Part shown: positions 1 through 62,347 of the stretch, in pieces | How the letters are laid out: the number at the start of each line of letters is the position of its first letter | Numbering within the stretch: the first letter of the stretch is position 1 | Origin: Paraspadella gotoi | Taxonomy: Eukaryota; Animalia; Chaetognatha | Length of the DNA stretch: 64,000 bases | Direction of reading: 5' to 3' | NCBI GenBank assembly: GCA_051294375.1 | Contig: CM119269.1 | Location: 6,709,552-6,773,551, forward strand | The notes under the pieces: generated by a model | Database searches by the model: none | What the model saw: the letters and a program-made list of their open reading frames with translations, nothing else | What the model was told of the DNA's origin: nothing | Program-made: the position numbers and the translations under genes

Positions 1-8268
<8,268 letters not shown>

Positions 8269-17699: not shown

Positions 17700-18902
17700 T
17701 TGAACAATAAAGCGTAATTAAAATTATATATTTAAATTCAATTAGAATTCTAAAAGTGAGGAACGAACAACATTATACTAATGAACATTTCTGTATAAAA
17801 AAATGTTATTATAAATTTTACATTTACGCAGTAGGCCATATTTATACATAGTAATAAATGGTAAAATTTCAAAATAGTTTTTTGTAAGATTTTTTTGCAT
17901 GAAAAGTTGATATAAAGAAATATAACTTTTTTAAAAAATTATTTCATTTAGTTGGTCAAATATCAGAAAAACCTATATTTTAAGCTGAAAATTAAAATTT
18001 TATTTATTTTTTTAATTTTTTACCCACTTAATGAAAACAATTTTAAAAATGATTTCTATTTTATATTTTGACGAGGAATTCATATCTGTCAAACTTTTAG
18101 AAAGGTCTATTATTGAAATTATTTATATTATTAATAAAGGATAGTACATATATATATATAGCCTAACTGCGAAAAGATTAAAAAGTATAAAATAGATTTT
18201 TTTTGTACAAATTAATTGTTCACATGTATGGGTATCTCATTGTTCATTAATTGACTTTTAGAATTTCATACGCAACTTTCACTATTGAATAAGGCGTAGT
18301 GAAAGTTACATAACGAAAATTCTAAAAGTCAATTAATGAACAACATACCAATCAGTTGAACATTAATTTGTAAAAAAAATTAATTTTATGTTTTTTAATT
18401 TTCGAGTAGGCTATATTTATATATAGTACTAACCTTATAAATCGAAAAATTTGCAAAATAGGCTTTTCTTAAATTTTGATTGCAGATTTGAATTCCTCGA
18501 AAAAGTTGATAAAAGAAAATATAAGTCATTTTTAAAAATTATTTCATTAGTGGGTTAATTAAAAAACTATATTTAATATGAAAAGTTATAATTTTCAGTT
18601 TAAAATATAGCTTTTTCATTTTGACCCATTTAATGAAGGAATTTTGTCAAAAAGAGTTATATTTCTTTTATCAACTTTATGAGCGAATCAAATCTGTGCA
18701 AAAAATCTTAGCAAAAAGCTGTTTTGAAATTTTGAACATTTATTGGTTTAGTACTAGTATAAATATGGCCGACTGCGATAAATTGTAAAATTTATTAAAT
18801 TTTTTTTTATTACATAAATGTTCATTAATATAATGTTGTTCGTTCCTCACTTTAGAATTTTAATTAAGTAAATTTAGAAATTTTCTACGCCTTACTATTG
18901 AA
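17700..18902. mobile_element. AT-rich foldback/MITE-like element made of two ~590-bp palindromic units
   Basis: aattctaaaagtgaggaacgaacaacatt (~17746) is mirrored by aatgttgttcgttcctcactttagaatt (~18832). A central palindrome spans 18241-18343. Related aataaggcgtag-type ends occur at ~17706, ~18288 and, inverted, at ~18885. Confidence 0.75.
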
Positions 18903-35095: not shown

Positions 35096-35499
35096 TCTTC
35101 TCCTCTCTTTCGCTGGGAGGAAACGCGGTTGCCGCCGGTCGCTAGGCAGCCAGCCACGTTACGTCGGCCGCCTCTCTCTCTCTCTCTGATCGGTTCCACA
35201 AAGGATTTTTTCGAAGACGAAGAATTTTTTTTTTCTTTCGTTGCGTCGATCGGTGGGATAAACCAACTTTTTCTCCGTCTCGGTCTCTGTCGCTCTCTCC
35301 CTCTCTCTTCTATTTTTCTCGCCTTTCTCACTTATATTCTTATTTTTAAATATACTCATCGATGGGATAATATTTATATCCGTTTTGGAAAAAAAAAAAA
35401 ACATCGAACTTTTTTTCGATTTGGAAAAATCGACTTCGATCTTCGACGCATTTTTTATTCCGGCGGCGAAATTCGTGGGAAATGTAAAAAAGGTCGAGA

Positions 35500-35501
<2 letters not shown>

Positions 35502-35590
<89 letters not shown>
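35502..35590. repeat. (GAT)n microsatellite
   Basis: Visible run. Confidence 0.95.
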
Positions 35591-35591
<1 letters not shown>

Positions 35592-35794
35592 AATAACAAT
35601 GATATTATACTATTGATAATAAGGATGATAACGGTCGTAAAAATAATAAGGTTAATAATGATGCTGATGCAGATGATGATAATAATCTAAATGATGTTAA
35701 TAATGATGTTGAAGATAAGATAACATTTCTAAATTGTCCCCCACCTGCCTTCAGGTCACCAGCAACCTCCGCCCCAACTCACCCCCCCCCAGAA

Positions 35795-38700
35795 ATGGTG
35801 AGTCGCAAGAAGAGGAAGAGCGTTCCCTCTCGCGCATCCTTGCAACCGCTGGTCCGCGCCGAAGACGCCGATTACGCCGACGACGTTGAAAACGAAGCCG
35901 CTTTTCCCGGCGTCGGAGGCGACGAGGATCTCGTCACTCCGGAGGAAAACGGCGCGAACGACGACGACGACGACGATGCCAGCGAAGACGAAAACCGGCG
36001 CCTCTCTCTCGCAGCGAAACTTTTTGCGAACGAAGACGAGAATGGAAACGAAGCGGAAGTAAAGACGCCGGAACGTGAAGCGGCGTCGGATGAAGAGGAA
36101 TCGAGAGAGCTAGAGGAAGGAGCGACATCTTACGACGCCGACATGAATGACGAAAGAATGTCGCCGAACGAAATGGATATGACTCCTCGGGAAGAGAAAA
36201 TGGCGATGGATGGCGAAGGAACGAATCCGCGAGAGGACGAAACGGCGCCGGTTTTGGAATACGACGCCGAATTCGAGACAGAAGCGACGCCGGAGGATTC
36301 TAGGATTGATTCCGTCGTGGATGCGGCGTCGTTCCATTCATCGGTGACGCCGATAGATTCGCCGATCGAGAACCACGTCGAAATTCCGGCGCCGCGTCGG
36401 AAAGAGGAGGCGTCGCGAATGGGCGGTGTAGGATGCGGCGGCGCCGTTTCGGCCTTTGGGAATATTTGGGAGAAGTTGGAGGAGGAAGAGAAGGAGGCGT
36501 TCATGAAGTGGCTCGACGTTCAAGTCGCTTCGTGGAAAATTAACGGGACTCTTTTGCAGGCGTCAGGTGAGGACAAGCTTTTTAAATTTTCGTTATAATA
36601 CAATTAATTAAAACTTAAAACTTTTAAGGAGCGCTTCTTTTTATTTATTTTTTTTTATTTTCAAAAAATAAAAGTCAGCAACTAAAAAATAAAATGAAAA
36701 GATTTTATCATTAAACTACCTATAAATTCTCTTCGAAAAGGTTTAAATTGAACGAGTTCTCCTGTGGTACAAAATTTTAAGTTTATAATTAAAACAACCT
36801 CTGGCTATTGGCTATACGGCCCGCCGTGGTACAAAATTATTATCATTATTTAATAATAATTAATTCTTTCAGTTTCGAATCGATTTTTCGAGAGGGCGAC
36901 CTTTTTCGATCCGCTCGCCGCCGTCTCCGTCCCCGCCGCCGCCTCCTCGAAGGCGAAACGAAAAGCCTCCGAATCCGACGATCGAATCGAAGCGACGAAG
37001 AAACATCGAGGAGAGGGTTGGACATCGAGTGGTCAAAGGACGACGGCGGCGGCTGCTGCTGCTTCTGATGTAGCTGAAAACGGAGGAAAGGTGAGACGCG
37101 TTGATAAAGTTTTATTCGATTTCAGTAACATATTCCTCACCATTTTTGAATCCTTATTGTCTTTACTAGTTACTACTACATTCACGGATCTTTCTACTTT
37201 CATTCGTAAAACGGAGATAAATCTTTTTTAATGATTATTTTTTGTTTTCAGTCGCCCATCGAATTTTTCGAAAAGTTCATCACCCGAGAAATGATTTCGA
37301 GGATTCGTGACGCCGTCAACGACTCCGTCAACAACGACGTCAAACCCGACGCCATAGAATTTGACGCCGACGCAAATGACATCCCGAACAGAACGCTCGT
37401 CACCAAAGGAGAGATTATGGTGAGACTTAACCTCATATGATAATTCTACGATTGATTCCAATAAATTTCAATATATAATTTAAATGGCACTCTTGCAAAC
37501 AGTAGCCCCGTACCCTCATGATTTGAAAACTCGTTAAAAATTGTTGCTTTACTAATATATATTTGTATATTATCTGTATGTATATTGTATAATCAAGCAT
37601 CCAAGGTCAATTATCAAAACGATCATGCCGATCATGTCGATCATGCTCCTTTTAAGGGCCAAGTGTGGAGCAACAGGTGTGTTGCGAGCTTGTTATATTG
37701 ATGATATTAGCTTTTGATAGTTTTAAAGCGATAGACACACTTAATCGACTATAAAAAAACTAGGAAAGCCACACGCACACTTTTTTCAGGCGTTTTTCGG
37801 GGTCCTCGTTTTGCTCGCGAAGGAGTCGACTGGGAACTTGGCGGCGCTGTGGAGGACGCCTTCGGACGATGCGACGACGACACCGACGACGCCGTCGCTG
37901 AGTCTAAGACGCACGCGCGAGATTTTGAGACGTCTGGACTTGGGGAAGGAAAAGGTGAGAATTTGGATGAGGAGGATCGAGGTCAGAACGAACCTATGTT
38001 TGAATTAAGATGTGAAGGAGTCGATAGGATTCAATTCGATGATTAAATGGCCGGTGAAAATGTATATCAATAAATAAATATTTTAAAAAAACGGGTATTA
38101 AATTGACAATCTTAATGGAAGCCTTAAATTATCGTTTATCGTATGAATGAAAATCTTTGTATTGTTCGAAAAATTTCGTAAGAAATCATTAGGTAGTCGT
38201 AATATATAGTCTCATTCCGTCTTTACAGTAACCCTGCCGACAGCAATATTTATTACGTTATTGATTTTATTAACTCAGGCGAATTGGACATCAACCACCT
38301 CGGTGTTGGCCTGGATAGACGATCTTCGCGATCGTTGCTGTCAATTTCAATCTGACAAAAAGATCCACGACCACTTGGTCTCCTTGACCAACCTTCGCCT
38401 CGGCGGCGATGGCGACCCAGAAAGCAATACAGTACGGAATTAATCTCAATCGAATTAACCTTTTGACAGAATGAGGTTTTCTTGGCTTGAGTTTATCGTT
38501 TTGAACAATTATTTTTATTTTTTTTAAAAAAACCACGATGACAGTGAGGAGAGGAACTGTAATTTTCCGTTAACTCTTTAAGCACCTTTATATAGTAGAG
38601 TTTTATGCTCAGTTCCTTAAATTCTTGTGATAAATCTGCTCTCTTGTTAGGGCCAAATGTTATCACTGGAACTCCGAGGCCGGAGACGAGTTTAAGATTA

Positions 38701-41700
38701 GTAATAATTTATTGTCTCTATTTAATTTTAATTGTAATTCCTTATCGTTATTTCAGCAATGTGCAAATTATATTAAAGGATCAAATGACTTTTATCTGTA
38801 AGCAAGCTACATTTGATTTGGTAGAATATGACGCATTCTAGAATTTTTGTTTAATACTTTCGACATTTCAAAATCCAACCCCTCTCCAGCGCCGCCTCCA
38901 ATCCAACGCTTCCTTCTCCACCTCCGCCTGGGAGTTCTGCGCCTCTGACGGATTCGTCAAGAATTTCGTCGTCGACTCGGAATTTCGCGTCGCGAAGTCT
39001 GAAGACGAGGTCTTCGAACTCTTGACGAAACTCTTGGAGCCTTTTGGCGATAAGGTCGATCCGCTTAGTTCGGTCTTGCTTTCTTTTTTTCTTTCTTTTT
39101 TTTCTATCTGACTTCTTTTCTCTCTTTCTTTCATGCTTTCTTTCTTTTTTTTCTTTATATCATTCTTTCTTTCGTTTTGTCCTTCGGTCTTTTTCTTTCT
39201 TTTTTTTTTTATATTGTTCTTTCTTACTATTGCTTTTTTTTCTTTCTTTATTTCTTTCTCTCTTTTCATTTCCTCACTCCATCCTACGTAATTCCTCGTA
39301 AACTCCTTTAACCGCCTACAGCCCAAGACCCTCGTGGTGCCATCTTCCCTCGCGCGCGTCGGCGTAGCCCGTCGATTTCGGCGACACTCTCGGGTCCCGA
39401 TCTCCATCGTCGGTCGGACGCGGCTTCGCGGCGCCACTGGACTTTCGACGCAGCTGCTGCGCCGCCTTTTCGATCGCGACGCGGGGCCGGACGACGTCGC
39501 GGTGGTCTGGTGAATAAAGGGCGAGATGGGATTTCTTTTCTTTCTGTTGTATAAAACAACTTGTATTGCTGTTTTTATTTTTTGTTTTTAATTAATTAGG
39601 TATTAGGCGGAGTACAGAATACAGAGTACGGAATTGTTGTGACTGAAAATAAATGTCTAAATTGTAGATTCTGATTTCCTTAGTGACGACGGGGTTTCGG
39701 TGATCCTCTCGGAGGAGGATGAAGAGGAGGAGGTGTGTCTCGTCAGTGGGTTGGCGGAAGACGACGACGACGACAGTGAGGACTTGCTCGAAGATGGCGC
39801 TCGAAAGGCGCTCGATCTCTTCAGGCGATACAGCGAAGCGCTTTTTCAGAAAGTCTCGTGGAATCTTGGGGATCTTGGAGGGTGAGAATGACAAAGATAG
39901 CGACGAATGCATTCATCAGTTTTAGCTTTTCTTTTTAACCAATTTTTATGAAGATTTTGTCATTGTGTAATATTTGTGTATATTTGTGTATATTTAAACA
40001 TCCAACACAGCGAAAATCTTGCGGTTTTCTGCTACGGGATAAGGATCGCGCTTCAAAACAGCTTCACTTTGTGGGGTAGCCTTCAAGGTGAGTCGAAATT
40101 CGAACAGCAGAGAGGGAGTAAATGTACAATTGAAGTTTCCGATCGAGATATTAAATATCTTATCCAATACTTGGCTTCAGTTTATGCAATCATCGATATC
40201 ATAATTTATATAATTTTTTTTGTCTTCAGACGTCGACCAAACTGATTCTCGCTTTCAACTCTCTCAATTCGGCGCCACCGTTGCCGACGCCCTCTTTCGA
40301 CAAAACGATGCCGGTGTCGCCAGGGGCGCTCTCCACGGTTCCATCGGCGCATTGAGCGATCGAAAAGAAAAGCTGGAAGATCGAATCGGCACGCGGGTAG
40401 AGAGAAAAAGCGCGCCGGATTCGCGGAAAGAGGCGCTTATCGCTAAAATCGGCGTCGGCCGCGCGGAGGACGCGAAAACGGGAGAGTCAAGAACAAAGAT
40501 CGAGCCGAGAGAGATCGGTGAGGGTGGGTGAGGGTTGTCCGTTTCTGGGTGAGGTTTATCATTGAAACCAACTTTTTTCTGCTTCCCACCCCTTTATGCA
40601 GATGAAAGGCTGGATTCGTCGTTTCGCTCTCATAAACTCAAACTGATGCCCTTAAAGGCTCAGCCCTGCACGTGGTGTCAGTTCTCCAATCAGGTAAGAC
40701 TTTATACGTCTCTCTCTCTCTCTCTCTCTCTCTCTGTTCCTCCCTCTTTCTCCTACTTTCCCCAATCCAAACAGGTCCGTGGCCTCTCGCCCCCTCGCGA
40801 GGCCTTCATCCAGACTTCCACCGGTTGCGTCGATTGTGACGTTTACCTTCACGACAAACCCTGTTTCGTCGCCTTTCACGTTCACGCCGAGAAACTGGCT
40901 GCGGCCGCGGCGGCGGCGAAGGAAGGGGTTGAACGCGGCGTTAAGGGTGAGTCGAGGGGAAGGGGAGGTCAGGTCGGAATGATGGGCGAGTTTTGTTGTC
41001 GGTTTTGGGTAAGATGTGAATTGGAAACGAATAATCGAAAAGTTTAATTCAATCAATTAATAAAATTTCATTTGATTTGTTTTCCTTTCCTCCCCCCTTT
41101 GCTTAATTCAGAACCGCTACCCACATCTAAACATTCCTCCCGATCTGTCTCCCTCCTCTCTTCGCGTTCCCCGCACGTTCGCTCCAACCCCGCGCCCCAA
41201 AGGCCCCATCACCGGCCCGCCATTTCCCCCGCCGTAGCCGCCGCAGCCGCCGCCGCCACGCGAAAATCCCCAGCGGCGGCCGTCGCTCCGCCAACGCAGC
41301 AGCGTTACGTTTCCCTGCTGCGGCCGCTGCGTTCGGTGCCGACTTCTACTCCGCCGACGCAGCAGCCTGCGCGTCCAGTCTCTCCGCCGCTTCGAACGCC
41401 TTTCAACACGAGCTTCCTTAAAACGACGTTGGTTCCGCCCCTCTCGCCCAAAGCGGACTCTCCGCCTCCGCAGCCCGTCTTCCCCGGCCCGCCACCGCTT
41501 TCCCTGCACAAGGCGGCGGGAGGCGGCGCCGGGGCTGTCGGTGCGGCGAGAGGGCGCCGCGATTCCGGCGACGAGACGCGCGCGACGCCGCCACCGCTGC
41601 AGCCGGGCATCCCGAGTTCCATTGCCAACATGATGGCGGCGTTCAACATCAGCCCCAAGGAGCTCATCACCGTCAGGGATAGGCTGATGAAGAGAAGCGC

Positions 41701-43796
41701 AGGGATGAGGTGGGTTGCTGCTGGGGAGGAGTATGGCTTGGCAGCGTGGTTGCGTGTTTTGCCTGAATGAGGTATCGTTTGTCGATCCCAAATTCTAATT
41801 TGCATGTTACAGTCATCAAAATTCAACGGAACGGGTATTTTATAAAAAAAAAAAAAAAAAAGGTAAAATTGAACATAGAATGTTAAGGAATTTGATGATG
41901 GTTTTTCTACTTTTCATCTTATGCCAATGCGAACGTAGGTTTTTCGGGCGGCATCGTTAAACTTCTACGTCAGCAAGTTTTAAAAAAAAAAGCACTGCCA
42001 TGAAACTTTACATTTTTGACAGCGACGCCTCCCAAGATGACGCCGCTGGATCTATGTCGCCGGAAATGGACGAAGCCGACCGGAGCCGTTTTAACGGCCT
42101 CGCTAAGGAGACGCCCCTATTTCTGCGACATTTGAGTATGTTTTTTCATTACCCTTCTCAGGCCCTGAGTTTACTAATCGTTTGTATTCTCATATATTTC
42201 CCTATTTTTTCATGCAACAATAGACGAAAAAAATGTATACTCCTGTGCAAAAAAAGAGGCCACTCTTAGGTCTTGAATTGTGCTCGTTTTATACATCTAT
42301 TATAAAATATATTAATGATAAATGTATATTTTTAAAAAAAGAATCCATACATAAGTCAAAAGGAAATCGGTCCAGCTATTCAGGTGCTATAGCGACCGGA
42401 AGACGAGTCGTTAAAAACAAAATGAAGATGTGCAAAAAAATCGAAGCCTGATTTTTACCTTATTTCTTATAAAAAAAAATTAAGAATGGCCAATGGGAAT
42501 TGTGGATTTTTGAAAAAGAAAGCCATGTATATAAGTTTTAAAAAAATCGGTTTAACCATGCTCTATCGCTCTGATTGAGTAGTTACTTTTCTTTGCAAAG
42601 TAAAATAGTTTTTATTGAGTTTCAACTTTCAACAACGATTATTATTTAAAATCGAAAGTTTTGTTTCTTAATTAAAAAATTAGGGAAAAAATTTGTCATT
42701 TGTAAAAGTAGTTACTTTTACAAAAAACATTGCTGTAAACGGATATCCAAATTTTCACCAATAGTTCTTTTTTCTATGAATATTATTCACCTATATCAAT
42801 GAAGGAATCTAACATGATTTATTTGCGTACTGTTGTAGGGTGGCCTCTTTTTCTTTGCACCGGACTGTATTACGTTATCATCAATTGTATTTTGAATCAA
42901 AACACTTACGCTATTCCTCCAGACGTCAGCCACAATAACGACGACAACGACGCCGACGACGACGAAGCCGACCTCAGCAAGCGCAGCCTCGACCATTTTC
43001 GCGCCAAATTGCAAAAGCTTCGCCCGGCGTCGCTCGGTTCCATCGCGCCACGCCCATCCACTTCGGTCGTCGGAGAGAGCTCCGGTGCCGTCGCTTCCAG
43101 GAAATCTGCGGTGACCTCCGCAGCTACTGCCGCTGCGGCTTGGGCTGCGGCGGCCGGTCATCCCAATCCTTCCATTCACAGCGTGTCGACGCAGTTGGCC
43201 GACATGTTGGAAGTCGATGAGCCCGACGCCGCCGACCCCCATTCCATTCACAATTATCAGCAGATGACGCAAGTCGTCAACGCTCAGTTTCCTAATCACT
43301 GCGTCTCCAAGTTTCCAGGTGATTTGTGAAATTGGTATCTCTCTCTCTTAATCTTGAAAGATTTGTGAAATTCGCATCTCTCTCTCTTAATCTTGAAAGA
43401 TTTGTGAAATTCGCATCTCTCTCTTAATCTTGAAAGATTTGTGAAATTCGCATCTCTCTCTCTTAATCTTGAAAGATTTTAAAACAAAAAAAAAACAAAA
43501 AAAAAACGACGAATTTTGACTTCTATCTTTACGCTAGTTTTTATTACCCACAGTTTTCCAGCTGCTTCCGTTCCTTACCTTTTTTCTTCCCCCCCCATTC
43601 CCGCAAATCAGGTCGACAAAAGACATGCAAGTGGTGCACCCGACTCCGGTCAACGACCAGGAGTGGGCGCCGCCCCGAGACCACCTACGGTTGCGCCATC
43701 TGTGGCCTCAATCTGCATCGCGATTATTGCTTCCTCGCCTATCATTATCACCTCGTCGTACCTCTGGCGGACAAAAAGCAACTCCCGCCGCCTTGA
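35795..43796 (+). CDS. Domesticated piggyBac-transposase-derived protein (PGBD-like), ~1315 aa, two Cys-rich domains
   Basis: 16 exons: 35795-36566, 36873-37090, 37252-37419, 37790-37954, 38279-38431, 38890-39054, 39322-39509, 39684-39881, 40011-40087, 40230-40517, 40602-40693, 40775-40946, 41112-41709, 42023-42135, 42923-43318, 43612-43796; 3948 nt with no internal stop. PiggyBac motifs occur in order: SPIEFFEKFI, VTKGEIMAFFGVLVL, LW, WEFCASDGFVKNF, IVGRTR, VFCYGIRIALQNSFTLW, ERLD..H, CxxC..CxxC.VYLH..CF..FH. Confidence 0.88.
43321..43478. repeat. ~39-bp tandem repeat, four copies
   Basis: gatttgtgaaattcgcatctctctctcttaatcttgaaa, starting just after the donor of the last intron of the piggyBac-derived gene. 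Confidence 0.95.
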
Positions 43797-44618: not shown

Positions 44619-47600
44619 ATGGCGTTCATTCTCGCTTTCCGCGATTGGATCGCGCCAGATGTTTGGATCGACGACGCGATCGACAGTAAATTATTTAACT
44701 TATTAATAAATGCTTAATTATTTATTAATTTTTGTTAACTATTTACTTATTACGTGTAATGTAATGCTAGTCTAACGACTCGACAATAAATTTTTTAAAA
44801 AACCTCAGAAACCAACGTGTATTGGGTTAAATTTCGATACAAAAACCAAACCAAGTTCGCAACAGCAACGTGAATTGTTTCCGCAGCAAGGAAGCACCCA
44901 AATGCTACTTCAAATTCCAAAATTATTTGGCCAAAACATTTTGATATAATGTTTGCCCGCTCGTCGCTGAGTTGTTTCACAGCCCAACCAGCTTATTGTG
45001 TTCCCCCATCCAAAAGAAATTCATTCTCCCGCTGCCCAAGATGATTCCGCCGCGTCTGAAGCGTAAGATTTCTCCGCTGCGAACCTTACCTCAGCTATGC
45101 CCAGAAAATCCTGGGCCTGACCCAACTCGGTCGGGCACGTGTTGGGCTCGTGATCGGGAAAGAATCCAGAGCGCGAACCTCGATCGACTCGCGAGGGGCC
45201 GCGGGACTCGTCGGCACCTGCGGCGGCGCGGGGGTCGTCGAAGGCGACGTGGAAGCACGTCCTGACGGGCCGTTGTGGGTCCGAGTCCCACTGCTTGAAG
45301 AGGAGCACCTCATCTTTGCGCATGCGCGGGAAATAGTGCCACGAGTGGGCGTCGCTGTTCTTCTCGTTGAGCATGAAAAACTTTTCTGTGAATTCCAAGT
45401 TGTAGTCAGGGTCGTGACCGTGATAGTTGCTCTCCAAGTAATCCTGAAAAAGGTATGACGTTTGATCTAACTGGTGATGTGAATGGCTGCAAAAGTCACA
45501 AAGAGTTTGTGAGTTGGAAATAGTGTGAGGGTAATAGAGAGAGTGAAGGGAAGTTGGAAGCTCAACAAAAACGTTTTCATTCTTATATAAATATAAATTA
45601 TTTCAGGATAATTGTTGTTTTAAAAAGGTTATCAGTTCTCCATTTTCAGTATTTGATCAATCATCACCCACAGCCATCGATCATTCACCTCCGAACCGAC
45701 TCCGGGCGTCAACGACTTCCCATCGAGGACCGCTAGGTGGTTCCTCTCCAGCGGCTTCTCGCTGATGTTCCTCCAGGCGTTGATGTAGAGGAACCTGCCT
45801 CGACGAAATCGCTCGTCGAGTCCTCCGCTGAGATAAGCGAAGAGAGCGAGGGCGCCTTCTTCGTGAACGTCGGTGTGGATCCCGCGGGCGTAGTCTGTGT
45901 TGAAGGGAAGTTTGCGAAACAGTGCCGCAAACGTTATTGACGATTATGATCACAAATCGAATCACCCCCTAAAAATATCACTCATACAAGTGGAAAAAAA
46001 ATAAATATTTTAAAATGTGACTTTAACGATGTCAAGGAGATACGATCAACTTTCTCTATGTCCCAATTGTCCCATACCTTCGTAAGGACTGGCCTTGGAC
46101 ACCGGATCGAACTTGTTCCGATTCCTAACTTTGTGGTCGAAACACTTGACTACCTCCGCTCCTGTGTACCGCTTGACGCACTCCTCGATCTCTTTGTAGT
46201 ATTCGGTCACGATCCTCGAAGGGTCGGAGTAGAAGTCTTCCGTCTTGAAGGAAGTGTCGAAATCTACCAACTCGAATGAATGATCGTCCAGTGTGGCCCT
46301 GGTCGAGCGGGCGTCTTTCACCGTCACTTCCTAGAGAAAGATGATTCATGATAAGTAGATAAGTCTCTCTCTCTCTTTCTCTCTTTCTCTCTTTCTCTCT
46401 TTCTCTCTTTCTCTCTTTCTCTCTTTCTCTCTCTCTCTACCTTAGCTTTCATTAAGCCGGCGTTAAACTCCGTCGCGCGCCCCTCTTTTCTCAAATGGAA
46501 CGGAGCCTTTCCTTCTCCCGCTGCGTAGTGAAGAGATGTTTTCACGTCGTTTGGCGCCATTTTATTTGTTATAGATGGAATTGGTACAATCGAAATAACA
46601 AAAGACGCCGTTCTATATTCAAAAAGCGTTTCGTCAAAATTTGGGGATAAAATGTTTTCGTCCTACATAAAATCCAAAAGAATATTCCACGATTATTTTT
46701 AACGCGCAAAAAATAAAAGAAATCCACCCTTTTTTTTTCGTTCAACCGGTTCAGGTTATTAGGGGCAGTGACCCGTTTTTAGCCCGATACAGATAATTTT
46801 CAGTCGGTCCGGTTATTTGGTTTGGCTGTCTCTTTTTGACGGTTGTTCATTGAACAATTGGCAAAGTGAGAAGGTGGAAATTTTGGTTTCGATTTTGTGG
46901 TTGTTGTTGAAAAACAGAGCAAAAACGAAGGAATAATTTCTTGATACGATTAAAACAATAAAAACGGAGAGAGAAGGCCCAAAACGTCTCTGAAACTGGG
47001 TAGAAAAGTCGGCTGGAACGAATCAGTAAAAGATAGAGGGATAGAGAGCGAGAGCCTCCTTTACATACGAATATTGCTTAATGCTTACACATGAATGCAA
47101 GCTATTATTTCTGCAAGTAGTCATAAAAATTAGGCAAAACAAGCAATTTATTATTCCTTTGGCATAGAGGAAGTGATACATAAGAAGTCTGCGTAATGTA
47201 TGTTGTATTATTTTCGTTCAAGATTTATTCGTAATAGTCTTCCAACCTCGTTAAATCTTTCTGCGCAGTTAAGTCAATAATATTTTTAAGAATGGATTTT
47301 TGTGGAATCTAAAAGAGCATAAAAGTACCGTTTGAAGTAGTTGTATTTTTAAGAAACGCATCACACTCCTCAAAAGACTAAGTTTACACACACTACTACT
47401 TTGTCCTAACCTAAGTTTTAATATAGTATTGTTCTTACGTCTCAGGCTGAACAGAAAATCAACTGTTCTTATGCTGCACATCTGCCTCATCCCTATGCTG
47501 ACGAAGCAGTTCATGGGAGACTCCATCCAGTGCTTCACCCCGACTCACTTCACTGGTAGATACCTGAATTCAGTCTTAACAATTAAAGTATCAGCCTAAG

Positions 47601-48973
47601 ATCTCTGAAGTCGATTTCCGGGACCAATGATAAAGATTAAGTCAACTTTCTCTTTTGAATATCATTCGGTTTGAAAGTGAAGCTTTGACCAATTATTACT
47701 CAAAAAAAACAAAAAAACCCCACAATCACTCAATCAGCCCACAAGATTTAACGAAGCCAACTACTTTCTCTCCACACCCGCACCACAGGCCCACAGACCG
47801 ACTACGCCCACAGCTTCTGCTGGACGACTTCGACCTACCGTCTCCTCGGAGTCGACGGTTCTCTTCTCTCCATCCCTCAAACTTATCAAGTTCGAGGGCG
47901 GGAATTTAACTTACCCCGAGGCCAAGGTTCGTTTCTTTTAGGTTGAGATGGCGTCTTTTCCATTTGTCTGTTGTTTTCGTTTTTTTTTTTTTTTTTTTAA
48001 TTATTTCATTATTTTAATTTTATAATTTTATCATTCTTTGTTGTCTATAAAATGTCGATTTGACCCGTTCGACATAATCATCAAACTTTATTCATAGTCA
48101 AGTACTTGAGGCTGACAAATTGCATGTTATAATATGTAATACCATGTAATAAAATGTAAGAACGTGCGAGAACGGACCAATCGGACGTTATCCCGTCCCG
48201 TCGCAGGGAATTCCGCATCCAATGAGGACGCGGAAAAGGTCTTCATCTCTTACTATCAATGGGCGCCGATGATCTTAGCTCTGCAGGTAGTTGTTGTTGT
48301 TGTTGTCATCGTTTTTGTCTGAGTTTAATCGCCCTTCGCCTTAAGGCCGTCTTCTTTCACTTACCTTTCGTTCTCTGGCATTACCTGACCATCGCCAGCG
48401 GACTTCAAGTCAAACTGGTCATAAAAGGTGATTGGATTTAATTTATTTATGATTGGCTGAACTTTTTTTTTCCGCTCATAGCGTCCCTTTCTCCTCCAGG
48501 TGCCAAAGAACTCGCCAACACCCACGAGTGCAGAGAGAAGAAGTTGGGTCTTGCGTTCGACATCGTAGAGCAAATCAAGAACTTCCTCACTCACCACGCA
48601 CCTCGATCCCAGTGAGAGAGATCGGGTTCTTCGTTTTCTTCTGGCTGCACAAAGTGTACATTGTGCAAATGCAGAATTTGCGAAGAGAAATCTTTCTTCA
48701 ACTCACCTTTCTTTTTTGACAGGCGCTTTCCTCCGCCGAAACAAAAGGCGAGCGCAATAAAAAGAAAATATTTTGGAAAAAAGAGAGGAAACTTTTTGTT
48801 CGTTCTGTATATTTTTGTCAAGGTTCGTTATGGATTCGAACTTGTAATATATTGCGGAAGATCTGAAGGGTCATCCTAATATTCTTTGCATCGGCAACAC
48901 TATTTTCAAAACTAATGTGACGGTATATTCACACCGCCTCACGTCCCTTTGGCTTTGCTTCGTCTCACTTCCG

Positions 48974-49049
<76 letters not shown>

Positions 49050-49832
49050 CTTAAAACAGGTTTAAATCCCTTTTCAACCACACCCCTTCCACCCCCAACT
49101 CCCAAGTGCCTCTACCTCTTCAACATCCTCGTCCAACTCTTCGCCCTCAAGTCGATCTTCGACGGTCACCGCGACTACGAGTTCTTCCTCACGGATGGAG
49201 GGTCGTCTACGAACTCGTCGTCCTCCGCCGATGGATCCAATCCAAGGCCTTTCCCTTGAAGACCATTTGCCAAGTCTCCGGTCGGTATAGGAGATGAGAA
49301 AGGGGGCGGTACAGACGAGAAAATGTAACGTTGAGGGTGCCTGTAAAAAAGGGATCATTTGAGCTCGGGAGCGTTCCGAGAGAAAACAATTGTTCTGGGG
49401 TGCTTTTCTAAAAAGTAAAGAATGTATTAATCATTCCACCTTCTTAATTCTTCATCATCTTTCCCACCAAACTAATTCCAGTCCATCACCAAGGCAACCG
49501 CCTTCCCTACAGCGTCGAGTGCGTCCTCCCACTCAATCTTTACAACGATAAAATCTTCGCCGCCTTCACAATCTTCTTCCCTCTCCTCGGCCTCCTCCTC
49601 ATCCTCTCCGCCTTTCGGTGGATTCGACGGAACGCTCCGCACCGCCGAGCCGCCTTCGTGCAGAAGCATCTCCTCACCTTCAGGAAGATTCAGGGTAGGA
49701 TTTATCTTCTCTTTTCTGTGGCGGAAAAGTTCTGTCTAATAACTTATGTTGTTTGAAATGATTGAATAATTTATTGGTGATTTCTCCCCTCTCTCTTTTT
49801 AACGCTCTTTTTTTTACCTTCTCTCCCCAGGC

Positions 49833-49925
<93 letters not shown>

Positions 49926-51125
49926 CCTCTCCTCTCTCTCTCTCATCTCTCTCCTCTCTCCAAATGCCTCCCGGAATCCGCCACACCCTCATCCAACCCC
50001 CAATTCCCTCTTCAAACCGCAGACGGACGCGACCGCGAGGTGTTCCGCCACTTCGTCGCCCACTACCTCCGTCGAGACGGCGTCTTCCTCCTCCAACTCA
50101 TCGACGAGAATGTCGGGGGCCTCGCGGTGGCGCACCTCGTCGCCGGGCTTTGGGACGACTACCACGGCAGGTTGTAGCCGTTGATAAGGTTCATCTTTAT
50201 CAGTCGTCAGTGGGTACAAAAAAAAAGAGAACGATGAAACAAGAACATTAGATAAATCATTTTTTAAAAAATATATTGTAGAATAATTTTTAAATAAACG
50301 ACGTCTACTGCATGAAGAATTTAGTCTTGACGGCCCCACCCTCCCAATGTCTCTCATCCGACAGGCTGAGTCGATGCGCCAAACTGGAAGGCTTTTCGTT
50401 GGAGGACGAGATCCCGAAGCAGCGCGTCATCGACTGCGTCACGGAATCCCTCGCTACCTCCATTCCGATTGTGGACAAAGGCGAATCTGAGAAAAGCGTG
50501 GATTGTGAAGTGAAGAAGGGTGAGGGGTTTGAGAGGGGAGCGGGGAGCGGGGAGCGGGGGAGATAACTGAGAGAGTGAGAGAGTCAGAGAAAGTTAGAAT
50601 AGAGTGAAGAGTTTCTCACAATTGTTTTGAACTTCACGATAAGTTCGCATTTTACAATACGTAAATGAGATTAAAGGGGAAAAAGATTATAAATCGAAGA
50701 AAGGTAAAAGAGAAAGGTTGATAAAGAAATAAAGAGAGGTATTGATAGTCAAAAAAATGTTAGAAAAAGAGCCGATAAGAAAGGAGAAAGACCGAGAGAG
50801 AAAATGGGAGAGAAAAAATAACGAACGTAAAAGAGAAAGAAAGAAGAGAGGAAGCAACAACAATGAATTGTTGTTTTAATCTTCAGATCGTCAGGAAGCG
50901 AAGGACGAGGCTCCGCCGATCCCTCCGCCACCGATCCATGTCGATCCTGGGAGTACGTGAACATTGAATCCTAATGCGCTAAAACGTTTATTTCATTTTC
51001 AAATAAACTAATTTATTAAATCGAAATTTTATTCTAACTCTACAACAGCGCCACCCTTCGCCTCCAAGAGTGCCTTTCATTTTCATGGAGTCAAGATTGA
51101 TAAAGTAAGTCAAATCTTCTTTTTT

Positions 51126-51163
<38 letters not shown>

Positions 51164-51174
51164 CTCTCTCCTGT

Positions 51175-51220
<46 letters not shown>

Positions 51221-51228
51221 TCTCTCTC

Positions 51229-51259
<31 letters not shown>

Positions 51260-51388
51260 ACAACATTATTGCCATATCCTTTCGCGCTCTTCGCTCGATC
51301 TCTCGCTCAATATCTTAACCCTCTCCCGACCAATCAACATCCATTTGCCATTAAACCCCAGCCCAAAGCTTCTCTGTCGATCGCTATC

Positions 51389-51462
<74 letters not shown>

Positions 51463-51467
51463 CTCTC

Positions 51468-51501
<34 letters not shown>

Positions 51502-52004
51502 CCTCTCTTTCTCTCTCCTCCAAATTTTCATTTATCAAAAAACAAAAAAAACCGCGTCTAGAAAATTCCCGTTTACATTTCTTCTACACTGCGGATTGTT
51601 TGATAGGAAAGTCATCCCAGAAGTAAACAAATGTTTTCATCCACTCGAAAGTCAAATGACGAATGAGGATCGCGATTCGGGTGCGAGTTGTTTATTTTTG
51701 ACTCACATTTTTTTTTTTTTTTTTTTGGAATTCTCGGAATTTTTGACCCCGGAATTTCTTTGAAACTCTCATAACTGTTTTTAACCCTTTATTTCCATTT
51801 CATTGTTTTAAATTTTTTAAATGGGTTTGGAATTTGAGTTTGTTTTAATATAAAATCAATTTTTCAACTTAAAAATTGATCGCCTCTCTCTTTATCCGAA
51901 TCCTTAACACTTTGTTCAACGCCTCTCGTGGACAGAATCGAAAATCCTTCACCCGTTTCCGGAAGTTTGACTCCAGTCGGAAGGTGAGAGAGAAGAGGAG
52001 AGAG

Positions 52005-52049
<45 letters not shown>

Positions 52050-52376
52050 CCGGAAGAGAGGATGGAGCAGAGGGAGAGAGAACGCCAATAATCTCGATGG
52101 CACAGAGAAAAAACCTCCTAAGTCTTAATCCAATGCTCCTGTATATACTGAATCAACCTTGTTGAATTCGAAATAAAACGCATATAACAGGTATTTGTCC
52201 CAGTGCCCCTTTAAAAAACAAAGAAAGAGAGACATAAAGACAGAAAAAGTAACGAGAGAGAGACGGATACAGAGAGAGAGAGAGAGACATCATCTCCATT
52301 CTCCCCCTCCAAGCTCCCGTCGGTGCTCCCGCGTCGTCGGCGACAATCTCTTCATCTCCAACTTGGGCTTCGCTGA
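44619..52376 (+). CDS. inx: Innexin A (15 exons, long C-terminal tail)
   Basis: Exon 1 44619-44686 (MAFILAFRDWIAPDVWIDDAID-R), then 47446-47555, 47789-47926, 48207-48286 (SYYQWAP), 48346-48427, 48500-48611, 48723-48822, 49107-49280 (FPLKTIC), 49482-49694 (CVLPLNLYNDKIF), 50023-50170 (YLRRDGVFLL), 50365-50519, 50887-50952, 51049-51104, 51936-51983, 52314-52376. Needs +1 nt at the exon 1/2 junction and near 49190. The tail exons are less certain; an alternative stop lies at 50960. Confidence 0.88.
45021..46560 (-). CDS. AsaB/CmcJ/NvfI-family Fe(II)/2-oxoglutarate dioxygenase, nested in innexin A intron 1
   Basis: Exons 46560-46441, 46330-46078, 45894-45689, 45443-45021. Motifs VTVKDAR..TLDDHSFEL, EYYKEIEECVK..TGA, FDHKVR, IHTD (HxD), FLYINAWRNI, LAVLD, HSWHYFPRMRKDEVLLFKQWDSD, CFHVAFDDP, PRESIEVRAL (in a shifted frame), FFPDHEPNTCP. 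Confidence 0.9.
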
Positions 52377-53145
52377 AGGCGGCGACGAGATGTTGGGACT
52401 TCGAGCTCTCGGCGCCAGACGGAACACCCTCATCGTGGAGAGCGGACTTGGGCCGGATGAGGGGGGAAAGTGAAGATTGGAGACTCGGAGCGAGTAGAGG
52501 GGGTTTTGGCAGAAGGGGTATCGAAAGGGTAGAGAGGCCATAACATTTTGTACTGCTAAGTACCTTTCTCCACTGAAAAGGGCCTCTTCTTCTTTATACC
52601 AAGTAGATCCCTGTACACTGTAGACTGTACAGTGTAGAGTGTACACGATGAAACTAAACTTTAACCAACAGTCCGAGGTTATGAATAATTTATCTAAAAA
52701 TTTTAATCTTTCTCACAGTATACAACGCTGTTTACTTACTACATACATCTTCGGTAATCGTCATGTTTTTTCCAAGTTTTAAACGATATTCTAATTCTAA
52801 AAAATTCTTAAAAAAATCATCAACGAACTAAAATTTCATTTGCATGAAGACGCGAACGAATATTTCAAACAATAAAAAAAACTATGAAAACAATGGACGG
52901 AGAAAAAAATGAACAAAGCCCAACGCTTATCGTAATTTAAATCGAATCGCGATTTCGAAAAACGAAAAGAATCTTCTTATTATCAAACGTCGGTCGATTA
53001 AATTCGGAAGTATTTCAGAATCATTTTAAATATGGATAATAAGAGAAGCTGAACAGAGGCAAAAACAAAATCACTATTCATTTTTGCGACATTTAATATC
53101 GAGCGACTCAATAACCCTCGAAAACAACACCTGCCCAACTTTGCC

Positions 53146-56100
53146 ATGGCATTTTTTTACCCTTCCGACTTGGCCAAAGCCTTTGGCGAGCAGCCCCACC
53201 TCGACGACGGCTGCGACCGCGCCCACCGTTTCTACATGCCGCTCATCCTGGTCCTGGCCTGCTCCGTTTTGGGACTCAAGCAATTTGCCGGAGATCCCAT
53301 CCACGTACGAGAGGGGCAAAGGGGAGAGAGCCTTGCGGTTTTGATATTTGCCGACTGCTTCGCGCGTGCTTTTTATCGCTTTGAAACTTAGTTTTTTATC
53401 GCGTTTTGCTATGCTATGCTTTGCATTTTTGTTTCTTTATTAAAAAAAATCTAATTTTTAATTTTTATGGGGTTTATATTTTTTCTGATTAATAAAATAA
53501 ACGATAATAACAGAATTAAAAAAACAGTAACGGTATCAATAACATCGCTTTCTAATCTAACAGGCATCTAACAGCATCGCTGCTCGCATCCGATTATTGT
53601 CAAGAATTTATTCAACTAATTTTGAATTGCTTTCTCCTTCATCGCCGCTGTTTTCACTCAAGATGACGCTTGTATCGTTCACTCGAGTTGATTTTATGAA
53701 ATTACTACCTCGCGTCATTTGAATATTTGCATCGCTTTCCCCCGCAGTGCTACACGGGATCCAACCTGAACCCTTCCCAAATCGACTACGTTAAAAACTA
53801 CTGCTGGACGGCGTCGACTTATCAAATCCTAGACACGGATTACGACACGTTTAGACTCCCGCAAGGGACCGACCATCTGCTTGAAGGTAAGGACTCCCAC
53901 TGTCGCATTGGATGAGCGATGTTTCGTTTCCAAATGATAAATTGAAGGATGGTTGAAACTGCGTCTCAGTTATAATTTGATCGACTTTAGTCGAATAATA
54001 ATAACATCAATTATAATAATAATTATAATATTTTTAATTTTCCTCTCCAGACGTCCGACGCGAGCCTAAAGATTCCATTCTCCTTGGCAAGAAGGTTTAC
54101 GTTTCTTACTACCAGTGGGTCCCCGTGCTGCTCGCCATTCAAGCCCTGCTCTTCCACTTTCCTTATCTCATCTGGTACACTTTCGTCGTCAGAGGAGCTA
54201 TTCATCTTCCGCATCTCATGAACGGTAGTGGAGACTCAAGAAATTATCTACGATTTGTTTCTTGAACTCATCCTTTGCCCAAATCCAGTTCGACCCCATT
54301 TCGCGTAAAACTTACTTTTTTGTTTTCTTTCCTGTGCCCACCCCCGTTCGCCAGGCGCTTATCTCCTCGCCAAAGTCCAGTCCAACCCCATCGCGCGCCG
54401 CACGGCTCTCGACGACGCCGCCTACATCCTAGATGCTCACTTCCGGGACAACGCCGGTGACACAGAGTCCGCGACGCCGGATTGGCGCCAGCGACTTCGC
54501 GGCGCCGGGCACTTTGCTCTCTTCGTCATCGTCAAACTCTGCTACATCGGCAACGTTGTCTTCCAACTCTTCTGCATCCACTCATTTCTCCAGCTCAACA
54601 TTCTCGCCTACTCGGCCGACGTGGTCAGGACTCTCTTCTTCGGTCACACTTGGCTCACCTCTGCCAGATTTCCCATCAGAACCCTCTGCGAGTTTCGAGG
54701 ATTGCCGCAGGCGAGTACGGGGAATGGGGCACAATAGTTTATCAAATATTTTTTCTTTATAATAAATAATTTGCTTGGAGCGGCACCAACGATATGCATT
54801 AGACATTATTAGTAGCTTCGATGGCGAAAAAATTATATTCAAGTTTGAATGGTCTATTAAATTCATTTACATATTGCAGCACCGAATCGGTTCATTATTA
54901 AAGATAACATACTCTATTGCTTTGCGATCAAATGGAGAAATTACGGGTACGATTGAAAACAGCTATCCCGAAAATTTTAATTAAAGTGAAGGATTTTTTT
55001 TGCCACAGGGTTTATTTTCTATTTTTATTATACAACCGATGGTGGGACAGATTATTGTTTGGCACAAAAGGATGTTTTAAATTAAGGCGGGCTCAGAAAT
55101 AATTTTTTGAAAAATATTAAAACTGTTTGTTATTAACAAAAAAAATAACAAATAGGAATAAAGGAATAATTGAAAGAATATAGTATAAGAAGCATAACTT
55201 TTCCCTCTTGAGGTATAGCCTTGTTTTAGATATACATAATTTCCTTTCTCTACTTATCGCAGTCGCATTAAGAATTTTAGTTTTTAGGTCAACTTGAGGA
55301 CAAAAAAACAAACCAATTTTTTACGATCCATCTCCGCATTGCTATTTCCAGATCCACGGATACCTCTTGCCCCATACTTGCCACTGCGTTCTCCCTATCA
55401 ACCTCTACAACGACAAGCTCTTCGCCGGCCTCGTCTTCCTCATGACCTTCATGCTCGCCGCCTCTTGTCTCAACCTCGTCCTCTGGCTGTTCCTCGTCTT
55501 TGGAGCAACGAGGAGATCGTTGATTCGGTGCCTCGTCGCGGAGAGGAACGGAGACTCGGTTAAGAGGTGGGATGGGGGAAAGAAAAGAAAGAATGGGGGA
55601 AAGGTGAAAGAATTAAAGAAAAAGGATAGAAGATGAAGAATATTTAGGAAAAAAAAAATATTGAAATAGAACGTGAAAAAGGATGGAAGACGGTACAATT
55701 TCCGCATCAATAATGCGGAAACAAACATTTAAACTTAAAAAAACTAATAATTTCAAAAATTAAAAATCCTCGTTGGCCTTGCGTGATAATAGAACCAAGT
55801 TATCATACCGTTCCACCTCGTCTCTCTCTNNNNNNNNNNCTCTCTCTCTTTCAGATTCGTGGATCACTACCTGCGCACGGACGGTCTTTTCATCCTCCAC
55901 CTCATCGACCAGAACGTTGGCCGCAACACGGCCAAAGAGATCGTCAACGCCCTCTACAGGAAGTACCGCAATGTCACGGACTCGGACTGCCCCTCGGCCT
56001 ACGAGAGCTGCCCGCGCGACGACACGGTCTTCGAGGCTGCAGACCTCCGCTCCGTGCTCCGCTGCTTCAGCTGCGACCGGCCGTGGGACGAGCGAGACGA

Positions 56101-56149
56101 GGGACGACCGTGCGAAAAGTGCAAGAACATTCTAAAGTCACAAGCATGA
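53146..56149 (+). CDS. inx: Innexin B (6 exons, Cys-rich tail)
   Basis: Exons 53146-53304, 53748-53886, 54051-54224, 54355-54710 (GC donor), 55352-55566, 55855-56149. Motifs LDDGCDR, KQFAGDPIHC, NYCW, SYYQWVP, RFPIRTLCEF, CVLPINLYNDK, YLRTDGLFILHLI. Confidence 0.94.
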
Positions 56150-57010
56150 TTCTTTTTTTCTTGTATTTTTTTATACATGTAACAATTAAGAGAGAATATG
56201 GTAAAAATTCCAAAGACACCGAACACACACTACGCTGTAATGCCCAAAATCGAAGTGCATTAGACAGGAAACCGTAATAGGGTACAGTATTCTATTTGTA
56301 AACCCTTTTTGATTAATGATCCGTGATTAATCATTCTTTTAATGCGTCGTTACAATGATGACTTCTGAAAAAAAAAATTGCATAGTGCAAAAAAAAAAAA
56401 ACAGAAAAAAAACAACAAAAAAACAAGAAGGACGCTGAAAAAAAAAAGAACTGCTGAGTAGTATAAATGTGAAAAGAGGTGTGTTTGTTTTAAAACTTGT
56501 CTCTGTGTCGCTTATTTGGGAGACTATAGTTTGGGCAAAAAAAGAGAAAATGAAAATTTTAAATTTCAGGTTGCGCAAAATATTGCGTTCGATTCATTAA
56601 TGAGAAAAATGAATCGAAACGTTGAGCATTTTGAGCAATTAAAAAAAATAGTTACACACATAAAACAGAACACACTTAAAACAGAAATCTTATATGAGCG
56701 TTCCTCACCCTAACATTTTTTAACGTATATGACGCTATAACTTGATAAATGCTGCAAAAAGAACGAGCATAGAAGGTACATTTTAAGCTGAACCGGTCAT
56801 ACATACGAGAAAAAACAGTCAGTCAGACAATCACAGCCAGGTTAATTCTTGAAACTGGGATAATTGGAAAAATGTTGTTAATAAGGTTGTTATTAACTTG
56901 TTAATAAGTTTCTACACCCATGGAGATATTAGGTTGGAGGAAAGGAGAAAAGTAACAAAATCGGAAAAAAAACTAGAAAACATCAAAATATCAAAAACAA
57001 AACGTTAGTC

Positions 57011-62100: not shown

Positions 62101-62308
62101 CGGAGCACGGAGCGGAGGTCTGCAGCCTCGAAGACCGTGTCGTCGCGCGGGCAGCTCTCGTAGGCCGAGGGCAGTCCGAGTCCGTGACATTGCGGTACTT
62201 CCTGTAGAGGGCGTTGACGATCTCTTTGGCCGTGTTGCGGCCAACGTTCTGGTCGATGAGGTGGAGGATGAAAAGACCGTCCGTGCGCAGGTAGTGATCC
62301 ACGAATCT

Positions 62309-62347
<39 letters not shown>

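What the first reader, a model, noticed from the sequence alone, without database searches (positions are those of the whole stretch)
35795..43796. Intron-rich, apparently catalytically dead, domesticated piggyBac gene
Seen: 16 exons splice into one uninterrupted ~1315-aa frame with piggyBac core motifs in order, and no TIR/TTAA element boundaries are evident. Known: active piggyBac transposases are ~600 aa, largely intronless, and need the DDD triad (D268/D346/D447 in T. ni). By eye the three catalytic regions read HLVSLTN (for LSVDE), TLVVPSSL (for xxDNxF) and RRYSEALF (for YNxxMGGVD), so no Asp remains. Inference: an old, lineage-specific domestication into a nuclear chromatin or DNA-binding factor, with a basic NLS (SRKKRK), an acidic N-terminal region and a Pro/Ala-rich linker. 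The ORF track does not show it because the core is split into 80-290 nt exons.
Basis: partly seen in the sequence, partly recalled or inferred. Interest (0 to 1): 0.88.

Follow-up and report, generated by a model that had tools for sequence, protein, structure and literature searches.

The report
Dead piggyBac gene, two zinc fingers
An invertebrate animal keeps a spliced 16-exon gene descended from a piggyBac jumping-gene enzyme that has lost at least two of its three cutting residues and carries a second, strongly conserved zinc finger, so it likely now works as a DNA-binding host protein: a new example of a known kind of gene taming.

Summary
The gene is real. Sixteen exons give an open 1315-aa frame. 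One 4529-nt contig of run X1 joins them: 14 of 15 coding introns appear as GT..AG joints at the modelled sites, and the last is bridged. The core without the fingers scores 33.9 bits against a piggyBac profile; the best of 500 shuffles scores 2.9. Catalytic Asp 1 and Asp 2 align to T478 and P554. The third site is ambiguous, and D654 may be the retained fourth Asp. ZF1 (aa 808-863) is degenerate. ZF2 (aa 1248-1299) is basic and 92% identical over exon 16 to an unnamed relative whose linkers have drifted. The dimerisation/DNA-binding helices keep 8 of 13 conserved columns; the catalytic domain keeps 6 of 40. Best reading: a nuclease-dead domesticated piggyBac acting as a DNA-binding nuclear factor (function inferred). 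Relatives of the core, copy number and synteny could not be shown. Intron-bearing or dead piggyBac-derived genes are known (PGBD5, PgmL), a three-finger one is on record in acorn worm, and this scan noted domesticated piggyBacs in other genomes. New member of a known kind.

The parts
35190..35492 (+). 5' untranslated exon (true start lies further upstream; 88 letters of the contig did not lay)
   Evidence: table 8; GT..AG intron 35493-35754 read from the sequence
35795..36566 (+). coding exon 1 (exon opens at 35755): basic N-terminal motif, acidic region aa 1-257 (27% D+E)
36873..37090 (+). exon 2: basic and Ala-rich segment before the core
37252..37419 (+). exon 3: start of the piggyBac core, dimerisation/DNA-binding helices (PF13843 positions 1-29, E 0.074)
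37790..37954 (+). exon 4: dimerisation/DNA-binding helices
38279..38431 (+). exon 5: first catalytic site, Thr478 (38387-38389) in place of Asp
38890..39054 (+). exon 6: catalytic-domain strands
39322..39509 (+). exon 7: second catalytic site, Pro554 (39340-39342) in place of Asp
39684..39881 (+). exon 8: acidic run and third catalytic region (Lys651 39805-39807, Asp654 39814-39816, Leu663 39841-39843; register ambiguous)
40011..40087 (+). exon 9: C-terminal half of the dimerisation/DNA-binding domain
40230..40517 (+). exon 10: last core helix and charged linker
40602..40946 (+). exons 11 (40602-40693) and 12 (40775-40946): zinc finger 1, aa 808-863 (40631-40879), H-CxxC-CxxC-H-C-H, degenerate, pI 8.4
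41112..41709 (+). exon 13: Pro/Ala/Ser-rich linker ending in a short helix conserved in P0001
42023..42135 (+). exon 14: linker with a short motif conserved in P0001
42923..43318 (+). exon 15: conserved helix and motifs shared with seven unnamed relatives' records; first His ligand of zinc finger 2
43612..43796 (+). exon 16: zinc finger 2 (aa 1248-1299, 43297-43745), piggyBat-type, pI 9.7, and stop codon; transcript runs to 43945

Best explanation
This is a spliced host gene derived from a piggyBac transposase that has lost at least two catalytic aspartates, and it likely works as a nuclease-dead, sequence-specific DNA-binding nuclear factor. Shown: the exon structure, the piggyBac origin of the core, Thr and Pro at catalytic sites 1 and 2, and two piggyBat-type fingers of which the second is conserved in relatives. 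Inferred steps: (1) a piggyBac of the piggyBat/PGBD4 finger type was fixed, lost its ends and gained introns; (2) the catalytic domain decayed faster than the helical dimerisation/DNA-binding domain, which would still fold and pair two subunits; (3) a second finger was added, by duplication or by a later capture, behind a low-complexity linker of about 385 aa and took over DNA recognition; (4) a dimer would bring two copies of finger 2 onto a palindromic site, as two piggyBat fingers do, while the acidic N-terminus and the short conserved linker helices recruit partners.
For: Splicing. Homology above shuffles. Triad loss; loss of one triad residue abolishes T. ni activity in vitro (PMC6143343, passages). 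Dimerisation/DNA-binding halves keep 5/10 and 3/3 columns conserved in 18 triad-intact references, against 2/18 and 4/22 in the catalytic domain (domain roles from PMC7351741, passages). The frame cannot be a neutral relic (0 of 300 drift runs stop-free). Finger 2 has 10 K/R against 2 D/E and pI 9.7, like the reference piggyBac fingers listed (pI 9.3-11.3), whereas the histone-binding Pgm finger is acidic (pI 5.48, PMC8086355, passages). The model of the relative P0001 has pLDDT 85-97 over the finger, and its best structural match is the piggyBat DNA-binding finger, 9c0f (Z 6.2, rmsd 2.6, 56 residues, next Z 3.5; Foldseek E 0.05). Exon 16 is 92% identical to P0001 while the whole C-terminal region is 53% identical.
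Against: No DNA binding, localisation or partner was tested. No relative of the core was found, so constraint on the core rests on this one genome. The conserved-column counts are small, and the helical domain scores only 0.28-0.29 mean BLOSUM against 0.73-1.22 for the references. The spliced core was not folded. Site 3 is ambiguous. [quoted passage not shown] Copy number is unknown because no genome is held. The Foldseek and VIA-align matches are below the tools' own strong-match levels.
Confidence: 0.58

Rival explanations
1. It is a domesticated scaffold whose fingers bind proteins or histone tails, not specific DNA, as with the PiggyMac finger.
For: The Pgm finger has the related His-first arrangement, does not bind DNA and binds histone H3 weakly (PMC8086355, passages and section 5). 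Related folds bind peptides (MYND, MetAP1 rows at Z 2.5-3.5). Finger 1 is long-branched and less basic.
Against: Finger 2 is strongly basic, keeps the long basic loop, and is up to 54% identical to fingers of piggyBac-family proteins (these references were chosen by likeness to finger 2, which inflates the figure).
Confidence: 0.15
2. It is a catalytically dead partner subunit of an active piggyBac-derived nuclease elsewhere in the genome, like Paramecium PgmL proteins, and positions or restrains DNA cutting.
For: PgmL1, 2, 3 and 5 lack all triad Asp residues and are required partners of Pgm (PMC6143343, passages). Here the dimerisation helices are better kept than the catalytic domain.
Against: No second piggyBac-like gene lies in the 64-kb window (six-frame profile search). 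The genome could not be searched. No programmed DNA rearrangement is known for this unnamed animal. At 10-18% identity a pairing surface for an active transposase is unlikely to survive unless the two co-evolved.
Confidence: 0.1
3. Only the C-terminal part (conserved helices plus finger 2) does the work; the core and finger 1 are a passenger, kept in frame only because they lie upstream in the same mRNA.
For: Relatives were found only for exons 13-16 and none for core exons 4, 6, 7 and 10. Branch lengths: core 6.5 and finger 1 3.4, against about 0.6 for finger 2. Amphioxus proteins carry this finger with no core (P0029, P0038).
Against: Finger 1 keeps 7 of 8 conserved columns and all eight ligand positions. 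The core keeps its length and the order of its blocks over about 400 aa. The negative searches depend on shared 5-residue words and are weak.
Confidence: 0.12
4. It retains non-canonical nuclease or integration activity, as claimed for PGBD5, using shifted acidic residues such as Asp654.
For: Asp654 aligns with the third or fourth conserved Asp, and Asp473 lies five residues before site 1. PGBD5 is reported to promote integration despite a divergent site (PMC12324416, abstract).
Against: Sites 1 and 2 are Thr and Pro with high alignment confidence. Only 6 of 40 conserved catalytic-domain columns remain.
Confidence: 0.04
5. It is a live or recently dead mobile element, or a chance reading stitched together from unrelated exons.
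For: Copy number could not be checked; splicing rests on one run of one study.
Against: Fifteen coding introns with exact junctions, no element ends, homology far above shuffles, and conserved relatives that appear to share intron positions.
Confidence: 0.01

Closest known systems
PGBD5 (chordate domesticated piggyBac; PMC3902484 abstract, PMC5381638 passages)
   Same: Intron-containing, no element ends, catalytic DDD not conserved, old domestication.
   Different: PGBD5 has 5-7 introns, is 343-732 aa and has no cysteine-rich finger. This gene has 15 coding introns, 1315 aa and two fingers. No PGBD5 sequence was held, so orthology was not tested by tree; the architecture argues against it.
piggyBat transposase and PGBD2/3/4 finger type (PDB 9c0f; PMC11707139 passages and section 12)
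   Same: Both fingers have five Cys and three His in the His-first order. Finger 2's best sequence and structure match in the PDB is 9c0f. Two piggyBat fingers bind one palindrome, and engineered two-finger versions work.
   Different: piggyBat is an active transposase with one finger. Here the triad is lost and the two fingers lie about 385 aa apart in one natural chain.
Ciliate PgmL1-5 and Tpb2 (PMC6143343 passages; PMC5381638 passages)
   Same: Long domesticated piggyBac proteins. PgmLs lack the triad; TPB2 has 12 introns and 1220 aa.
   Different: This is an animal gene (innexin and GATA neighbours). No active partner or DNA elimination is shown, and the fingers are basic, not acidic.
Uncharacterised degenerate piggyBac-derived proteins of marine animals: Saccoglossus LOC144361667 (P0077), Patiria XP_038070703 (P0019), Anneissia LOC117115057 (P0069), Petromyzon LOC116945863 and LOC116954466 (P0044, P0045)
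   Same: Same finger type and broken triads (DDY, KDP, KSP, DGD, DGD). P0077 carries three fingers.
   Different: All are much closer to active transposases. The window's core is a 6.5-long branch that groups with none of them, so no orthology is shown.

Membership tests
piggyBac superfamily (ancestry) | Core homologous to PF13843, blocks in order | tested here: met
   33.9 bits vs best shuffle 2.9 of 500; 16.4 vs 4.4 of 300 with an independent profile. Pfam's own cut-off was not reached by any single exon.
piggyBac superfamily (ancestry) | C-terminal cysteine-rich zinc finger (PF13842) | tested here: met
   Two fingers; exon 16 alone E 3.7e-4, 21.4 bits, below the cut-off of 24 because the first ligand is in exon 15; fold match to 9c0f for the relative P0001.
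Active piggyBac-like element | Intact DDD triad | tested here: not met
   T478 and P554 at sites 1 and 2; site 3 K651, R650, L663 or D654.
Active piggyBac-like element | Terminal inverted repeats with TTAA target duplication | tested here: not met
   No CC...GG pair above 4 of 15 matches among 90 x 101 TTAA sites; the 25 longest inverted repeats shown are AG/CT microsatellites. Crude test.
Active piggyBac-like element | Multiple dispersed copies | not testable with these tools
   No genome held. One copy in the window.
Domesticated PGBD gene | Transcribed and spliced open frame without element ends | tested here: met
   one run of one study, RNA status is the tool's guess.
Domesticated PGBD gene | Purifying selection | tested here: inconclusive
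   Indirect only: open frame at 10-18% identity and block-wise conservation of the C-terminal part. No DNA of relatives, so no dN/dS; no core relatives.
Domesticated PGBD gene | Single copy at a syntenic site in related species | not testable with these tools
   No genome; the relatives are short unnamed records without context; locus scans found nothing.
PGBD5 | No cysteine-rich finger | tested here: not met
   Two fingers are present; PGBD5 lacks one (PMC5381638, PMC11707139, passages).
PGBD5 | Groups with PGBD5 in a tree, shared introns and synteny | not tested
   No true PGBD5 sequence was held; the core branch is too long to place.
PgmL-type partner subunit | Binds an active domesticated piggyBac nuclease | not testable with these tools
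   No candidate partner in the window; no genome.

The most novel reading that the evidence does not exclude
A natural two-finger piggyBac: one lineage captured piggyBac twice, an ancient core plus a younger DNA-binding finger spliced onto its end, and built a transcription factor in which the new finger, alone as a dimer or paired in cis with the old one, reads a palindrome once carried by transposon ends. That would mirror the engineered two-finger transposases and wire old piggyBac relics into a gene network.
Probability: 0.2. Interest if true: 0.7.

Novelty: new member of a known kind. Interest (0 to 1): 0.42.

Why it matters
It adds an apparently independent, very old piggyBac domestication in an invertebrate lineage. 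It has more introns than any PGBD gene listed in PMC5381638 (passages read) and is so diverged that single-exon searches barely see it. The split in rates (decayed catalytic domain, partly kept dimerisation helices, nearly invariant second finger) points to the part worth testing. One 52-residue finger can be assayed for its DNA motif and that motif compared with piggyBac ends in the host genome. It does not establish a new kind of system.

Tried and rejected
No whole genome is held, so copy number, partners and synteny are open.

Searches for relatives of the core found none: exon 7 against proteins of 110-2000 aa, 0 of 151 candidates; a pooled query of exons 10, 6 and 4 against proteins of 30-167 aa, 0 of 57. 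Simulated relatives at 75% identity would have scored about 48-72 bits on that query, but word-based candidate collection makes the blank weak. Exon 16 against prokaryote and viral contigs gave no locus. The piggyBac motif scan of viral contigs was empty. ESM Atlas: finger region best 0.89, PF13842 in 18% of members, a lead only; exon 3 nothing useful. Runs X2 and X3 gave only short repeat matches. No listed run is on record as RNA.

Idea rejected: that the conserved helix in exon 15 is a duplicated copy of the last core helix. It scored -4.6 bits, and 351 of 1000 shuffles did as well or better. Whether the two fingers arose by duplication or by separate capture is unresolved: the finger tree has 60 columns for 54 rows, finger 1 is a long branch, and the one-clade test did not finish. 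The fingers are 26% identical and are split by introns at different places.

The 157-bit score is not used as proof, because those references were gathered by likeness to finger 2. The spliced 1315-aa protein was not folded or searched as a whole against public libraries.
Full report
Observation. I rebuilt the gene from the sequence. Sixteen exons from the ATG at 35795 to the TGA ending at 43796 are separated by 15 GT..AG introns of 81-787 nt. They give 3948 nt and 1315 aa with no internal stop. Exons are GC-rich (0.48-0.70) and introns poorer (0.25-0.49). In the core the other two frames carry 11 and 12 stops.

Splicing. One of three listed runs, X1, held 0.49 of the sampled words, about the exon share of the stretch. 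Its RNA status is the tool's guess. A single 4529-nt contig carries the whole gene. Introns 1-3 appear as joints, and 12 of the 13 introns 3-15, each at the modelled site. Intron 11 lies beside a CT repeat and is not listed, but the 264 contig letters between the laid pieces of exons 10 and 13 equal exons 11 plus 12. The contig adds a 5' exon (about 35190-35492) and ends at 43945. It has one extra C in the C-run at 35781, upstream of the ATG. With that C the upstream frame is open for 114 codons but holds no in-frame ATG, so a longer N-terminus is unlikely but not excluded. This is one run of one study.

Homology. Single exons hit Pfam weakly: exon 3 PF13843 at E 0.074 and exon 16 PF13842 at E 3.7e-4; 12 of 16 exons hit nothing at E 1. 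I gathered references two ways. A recalled piggyBac motif pulled 109 metagenome loci, of which 43 ORFs of 200 aa or more made a profile independent of this gene. The model scored 16.4 bits against 4.4 for the best of 300 local shuffles. A search with the relative P0001 gave 77 proteins at E 0.001 or better; 20 of the 30 that I scanned carry PF13843. With 37 references of 300 aa or more, the core without the fingers (aa 300-735) scored 33.9 bits against 2.9 for the best of 500 shuffles. Identity over the core is only 10-18%. In a tree of 23 cores the window's protein is a 6.5-long branch and cannot be placed.

Catalytic sites. Nine MAFFT runs (three reference sets, three methods) put T478 at Asp 1 in 8 of 9 and P554 at Asp 2 in 9 of 9; hmmalign agrees with high posterior values. 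Site 3 differs by method: K651 or R650 in 8 of 9, D654 in 1 of 9, L663 by hmmalign. In the main alignment the four Asp columns read T, P, K, D, so D654 may be the fourth Asp, which PMC5381638 (passages) describes as less constrained. One lost triad residue abolishes T. ni activity in vitro (PMC6143343, passages), so the enzyme is very likely dead. Of columns conserved in at least 70% of 18 triad-intact references, the protein keeps 5/10 and 3/3 in the two halves of the dimerisation and DNA-binding domain, and 2/18 and 4/22 in the catalytic domain (domain roles from PMC7351741, passages). The counts are small but point one way.

Two fingers. The finding does not describe them. Finger 1 (aa 808-863) sits where a piggyBac finger belongs. 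Finger 2 (aa 1248-1299) ends the protein after a Pro/Ala/Ser-rich linker of about 385 aa. Both read H-CxxC-CxxC-H-C-H, five Cys and three His, the ligand count given for piggyBat (PMC11707139, passages). Finger 1 keeps 7 of 8 conserved columns but is long-branched (3.4) and mildly basic (pI 8.4). Finger 2 is short-branched (about 0.6) and basic (pI 9.7). The references were chosen by likeness to finger 2, which exaggerates this contrast. An AlphaFold model of P0001 is confident over the finger (pLDDT 85-97) and low elsewhere apart from two short helices. Its best match is the piggyBat finger, 9c0f (Z 6.2, rmsd 2.6, 56 residues; next Z 3.5; Foldseek E 0.05). These scores are modest by the tools' own scale but agree with the sequence search.

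Relatives. Seven of the 77 hits (P0001-P0005, P0009, P0023), plus cluster member P0078, match the linker motifs and finger 2. P0001 is 92% identical over exon 16 and 53% over the C-terminal 269 columns, with conserved blocks and drifted spacers. There are three distinct versions of each half of exon 15, so at least three other lineages or species likely have the gene. Several records stop matching where this gene has introns 14 and 15, which suggests shared intron positions; this is inferred from proteins, no DNA was seen. All are unnamed short records. No relative of the core turned up, which is weak evidence but leaves constraint on the core resting on this genome. There, neutral drift of an intact piggyBac core to 50% or 18% identity left 10-26 stops on average and no stop-free run in any of four sets of 300.

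Element ends and context. No TTAA-flanked CC...GG pair was found, and the longest inverted repeats are microsatellites. A six-frame profile search found no second piggyBac gene in the window. Neighbours include a GATA finger, innexins, a GT8 glycosyltransferase and Sel1 repeats, which marks an animal, probably an invertebrate. No genome is held.

Mechanism. The best reading is a nuclease-dead nuclear factor that pairs through the old dimerisation helices and reads DNA through finger 2 (0.58). In piggyBat two fingers bind one palindrome, and engineered two-finger transposases work (PMC11707139, passages and section 12). The rivals are a histone- or protein-binding scaffold like the acidic Pgm finger (0.15; PMC8086355, passages and section 5), a passenger core (0.12), a PgmL-like partner (0.10), residual PGBD5-like activity (0.04) and a live element or artefact (0.01). 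That the gene is a domesticated piggyBac at all I put near 0.9. All functional steps are inferred.

Comparison and novelty. Intron-bearing or triad-less piggyBac genes are established: PGBD5 (PMC3902484, abstract), PGBD1-4, NeoPGBD and TPB2 with 12 introns (PMC5381638, passages), and PgmL1-5. My own hits include degenerate piggyBac-derived proteins of sea star, crinoid, lamprey and acorn worm, the last with three fingers, and amphioxus proteins with the finger alone. Unchecked notes of this scan record further domesticated piggyBacs in other genomes, and none on this sequence. Six literature searches listed no paper on this gene or on a natural two-finger piggyBac; I saw listings only for papers not named above, and read no supplements. 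The gene is not an active element, and it does not fit PGBD5's architecture. It is a new member of a known kind, notable for its divergence, its 15 coding introns and its second finger. Interest 0.42.

Noticed in passing
window 54852-59039 and 59132-63313: A 4.2-kb inverted duplicate at 99.2% identity with an N gap (59040-59064) between the arms; it holds innexin and Sel1-repeat exons. Probably an assembly artefact.
   Followed up: no
window 48900-56150: Several innexin-like genes in a row; PF00876 hits at 53053-53388 and 54309-54734.
   Followed up: partly
window 4299-4766 (+): GATA zinc-finger exon (PF00320, E 7.5e-16), probably part of a GATA gene running from the start of the window.
   Followed up: partly
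window 45024-46330 (-): A few long exons that resemble, from recall only, a CmcJ/NvfI-like enzyme of the kind found in fungi and bacteria; no Pfam hit at E 0.05. A possible horizontally acquired gene.
   Followed up: no
window 20346-20975 (-): Glycosyltransferase family 8 exon (PF01501, E 4.6e-9).
   Followed up: partly
window 17720-18884: A 1.2-kb imperfect palindrome, 78% self-complementary; possibly a MITE-like relic.
   Followed up: no
window 43326-43480: Four tandem copies of a unit of about 40 bp in intron 15, each with a short CT run.
   Followed up: no
window 35781: The X1 contig has one more C in a C-run than the window; with it the 5' leader is stop-free for 114 codons in frame with the gene but has no in-frame ATG.
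   Followed up: partly
proteins P0014, P0019, P0069; P0044, P0045; P0077; P0029, P0038: Other degenerate piggyBac-derived proteins with the same finger type: a well-supported clade holding the sea-star and crinoid proteins, a lamprey pair, a three-finger acorn-worm protein, and amphioxus proteins with many isoforms that carry the finger without a core. Most are annotated as uncharacterised or PGBD-like.
   Followed up: partly
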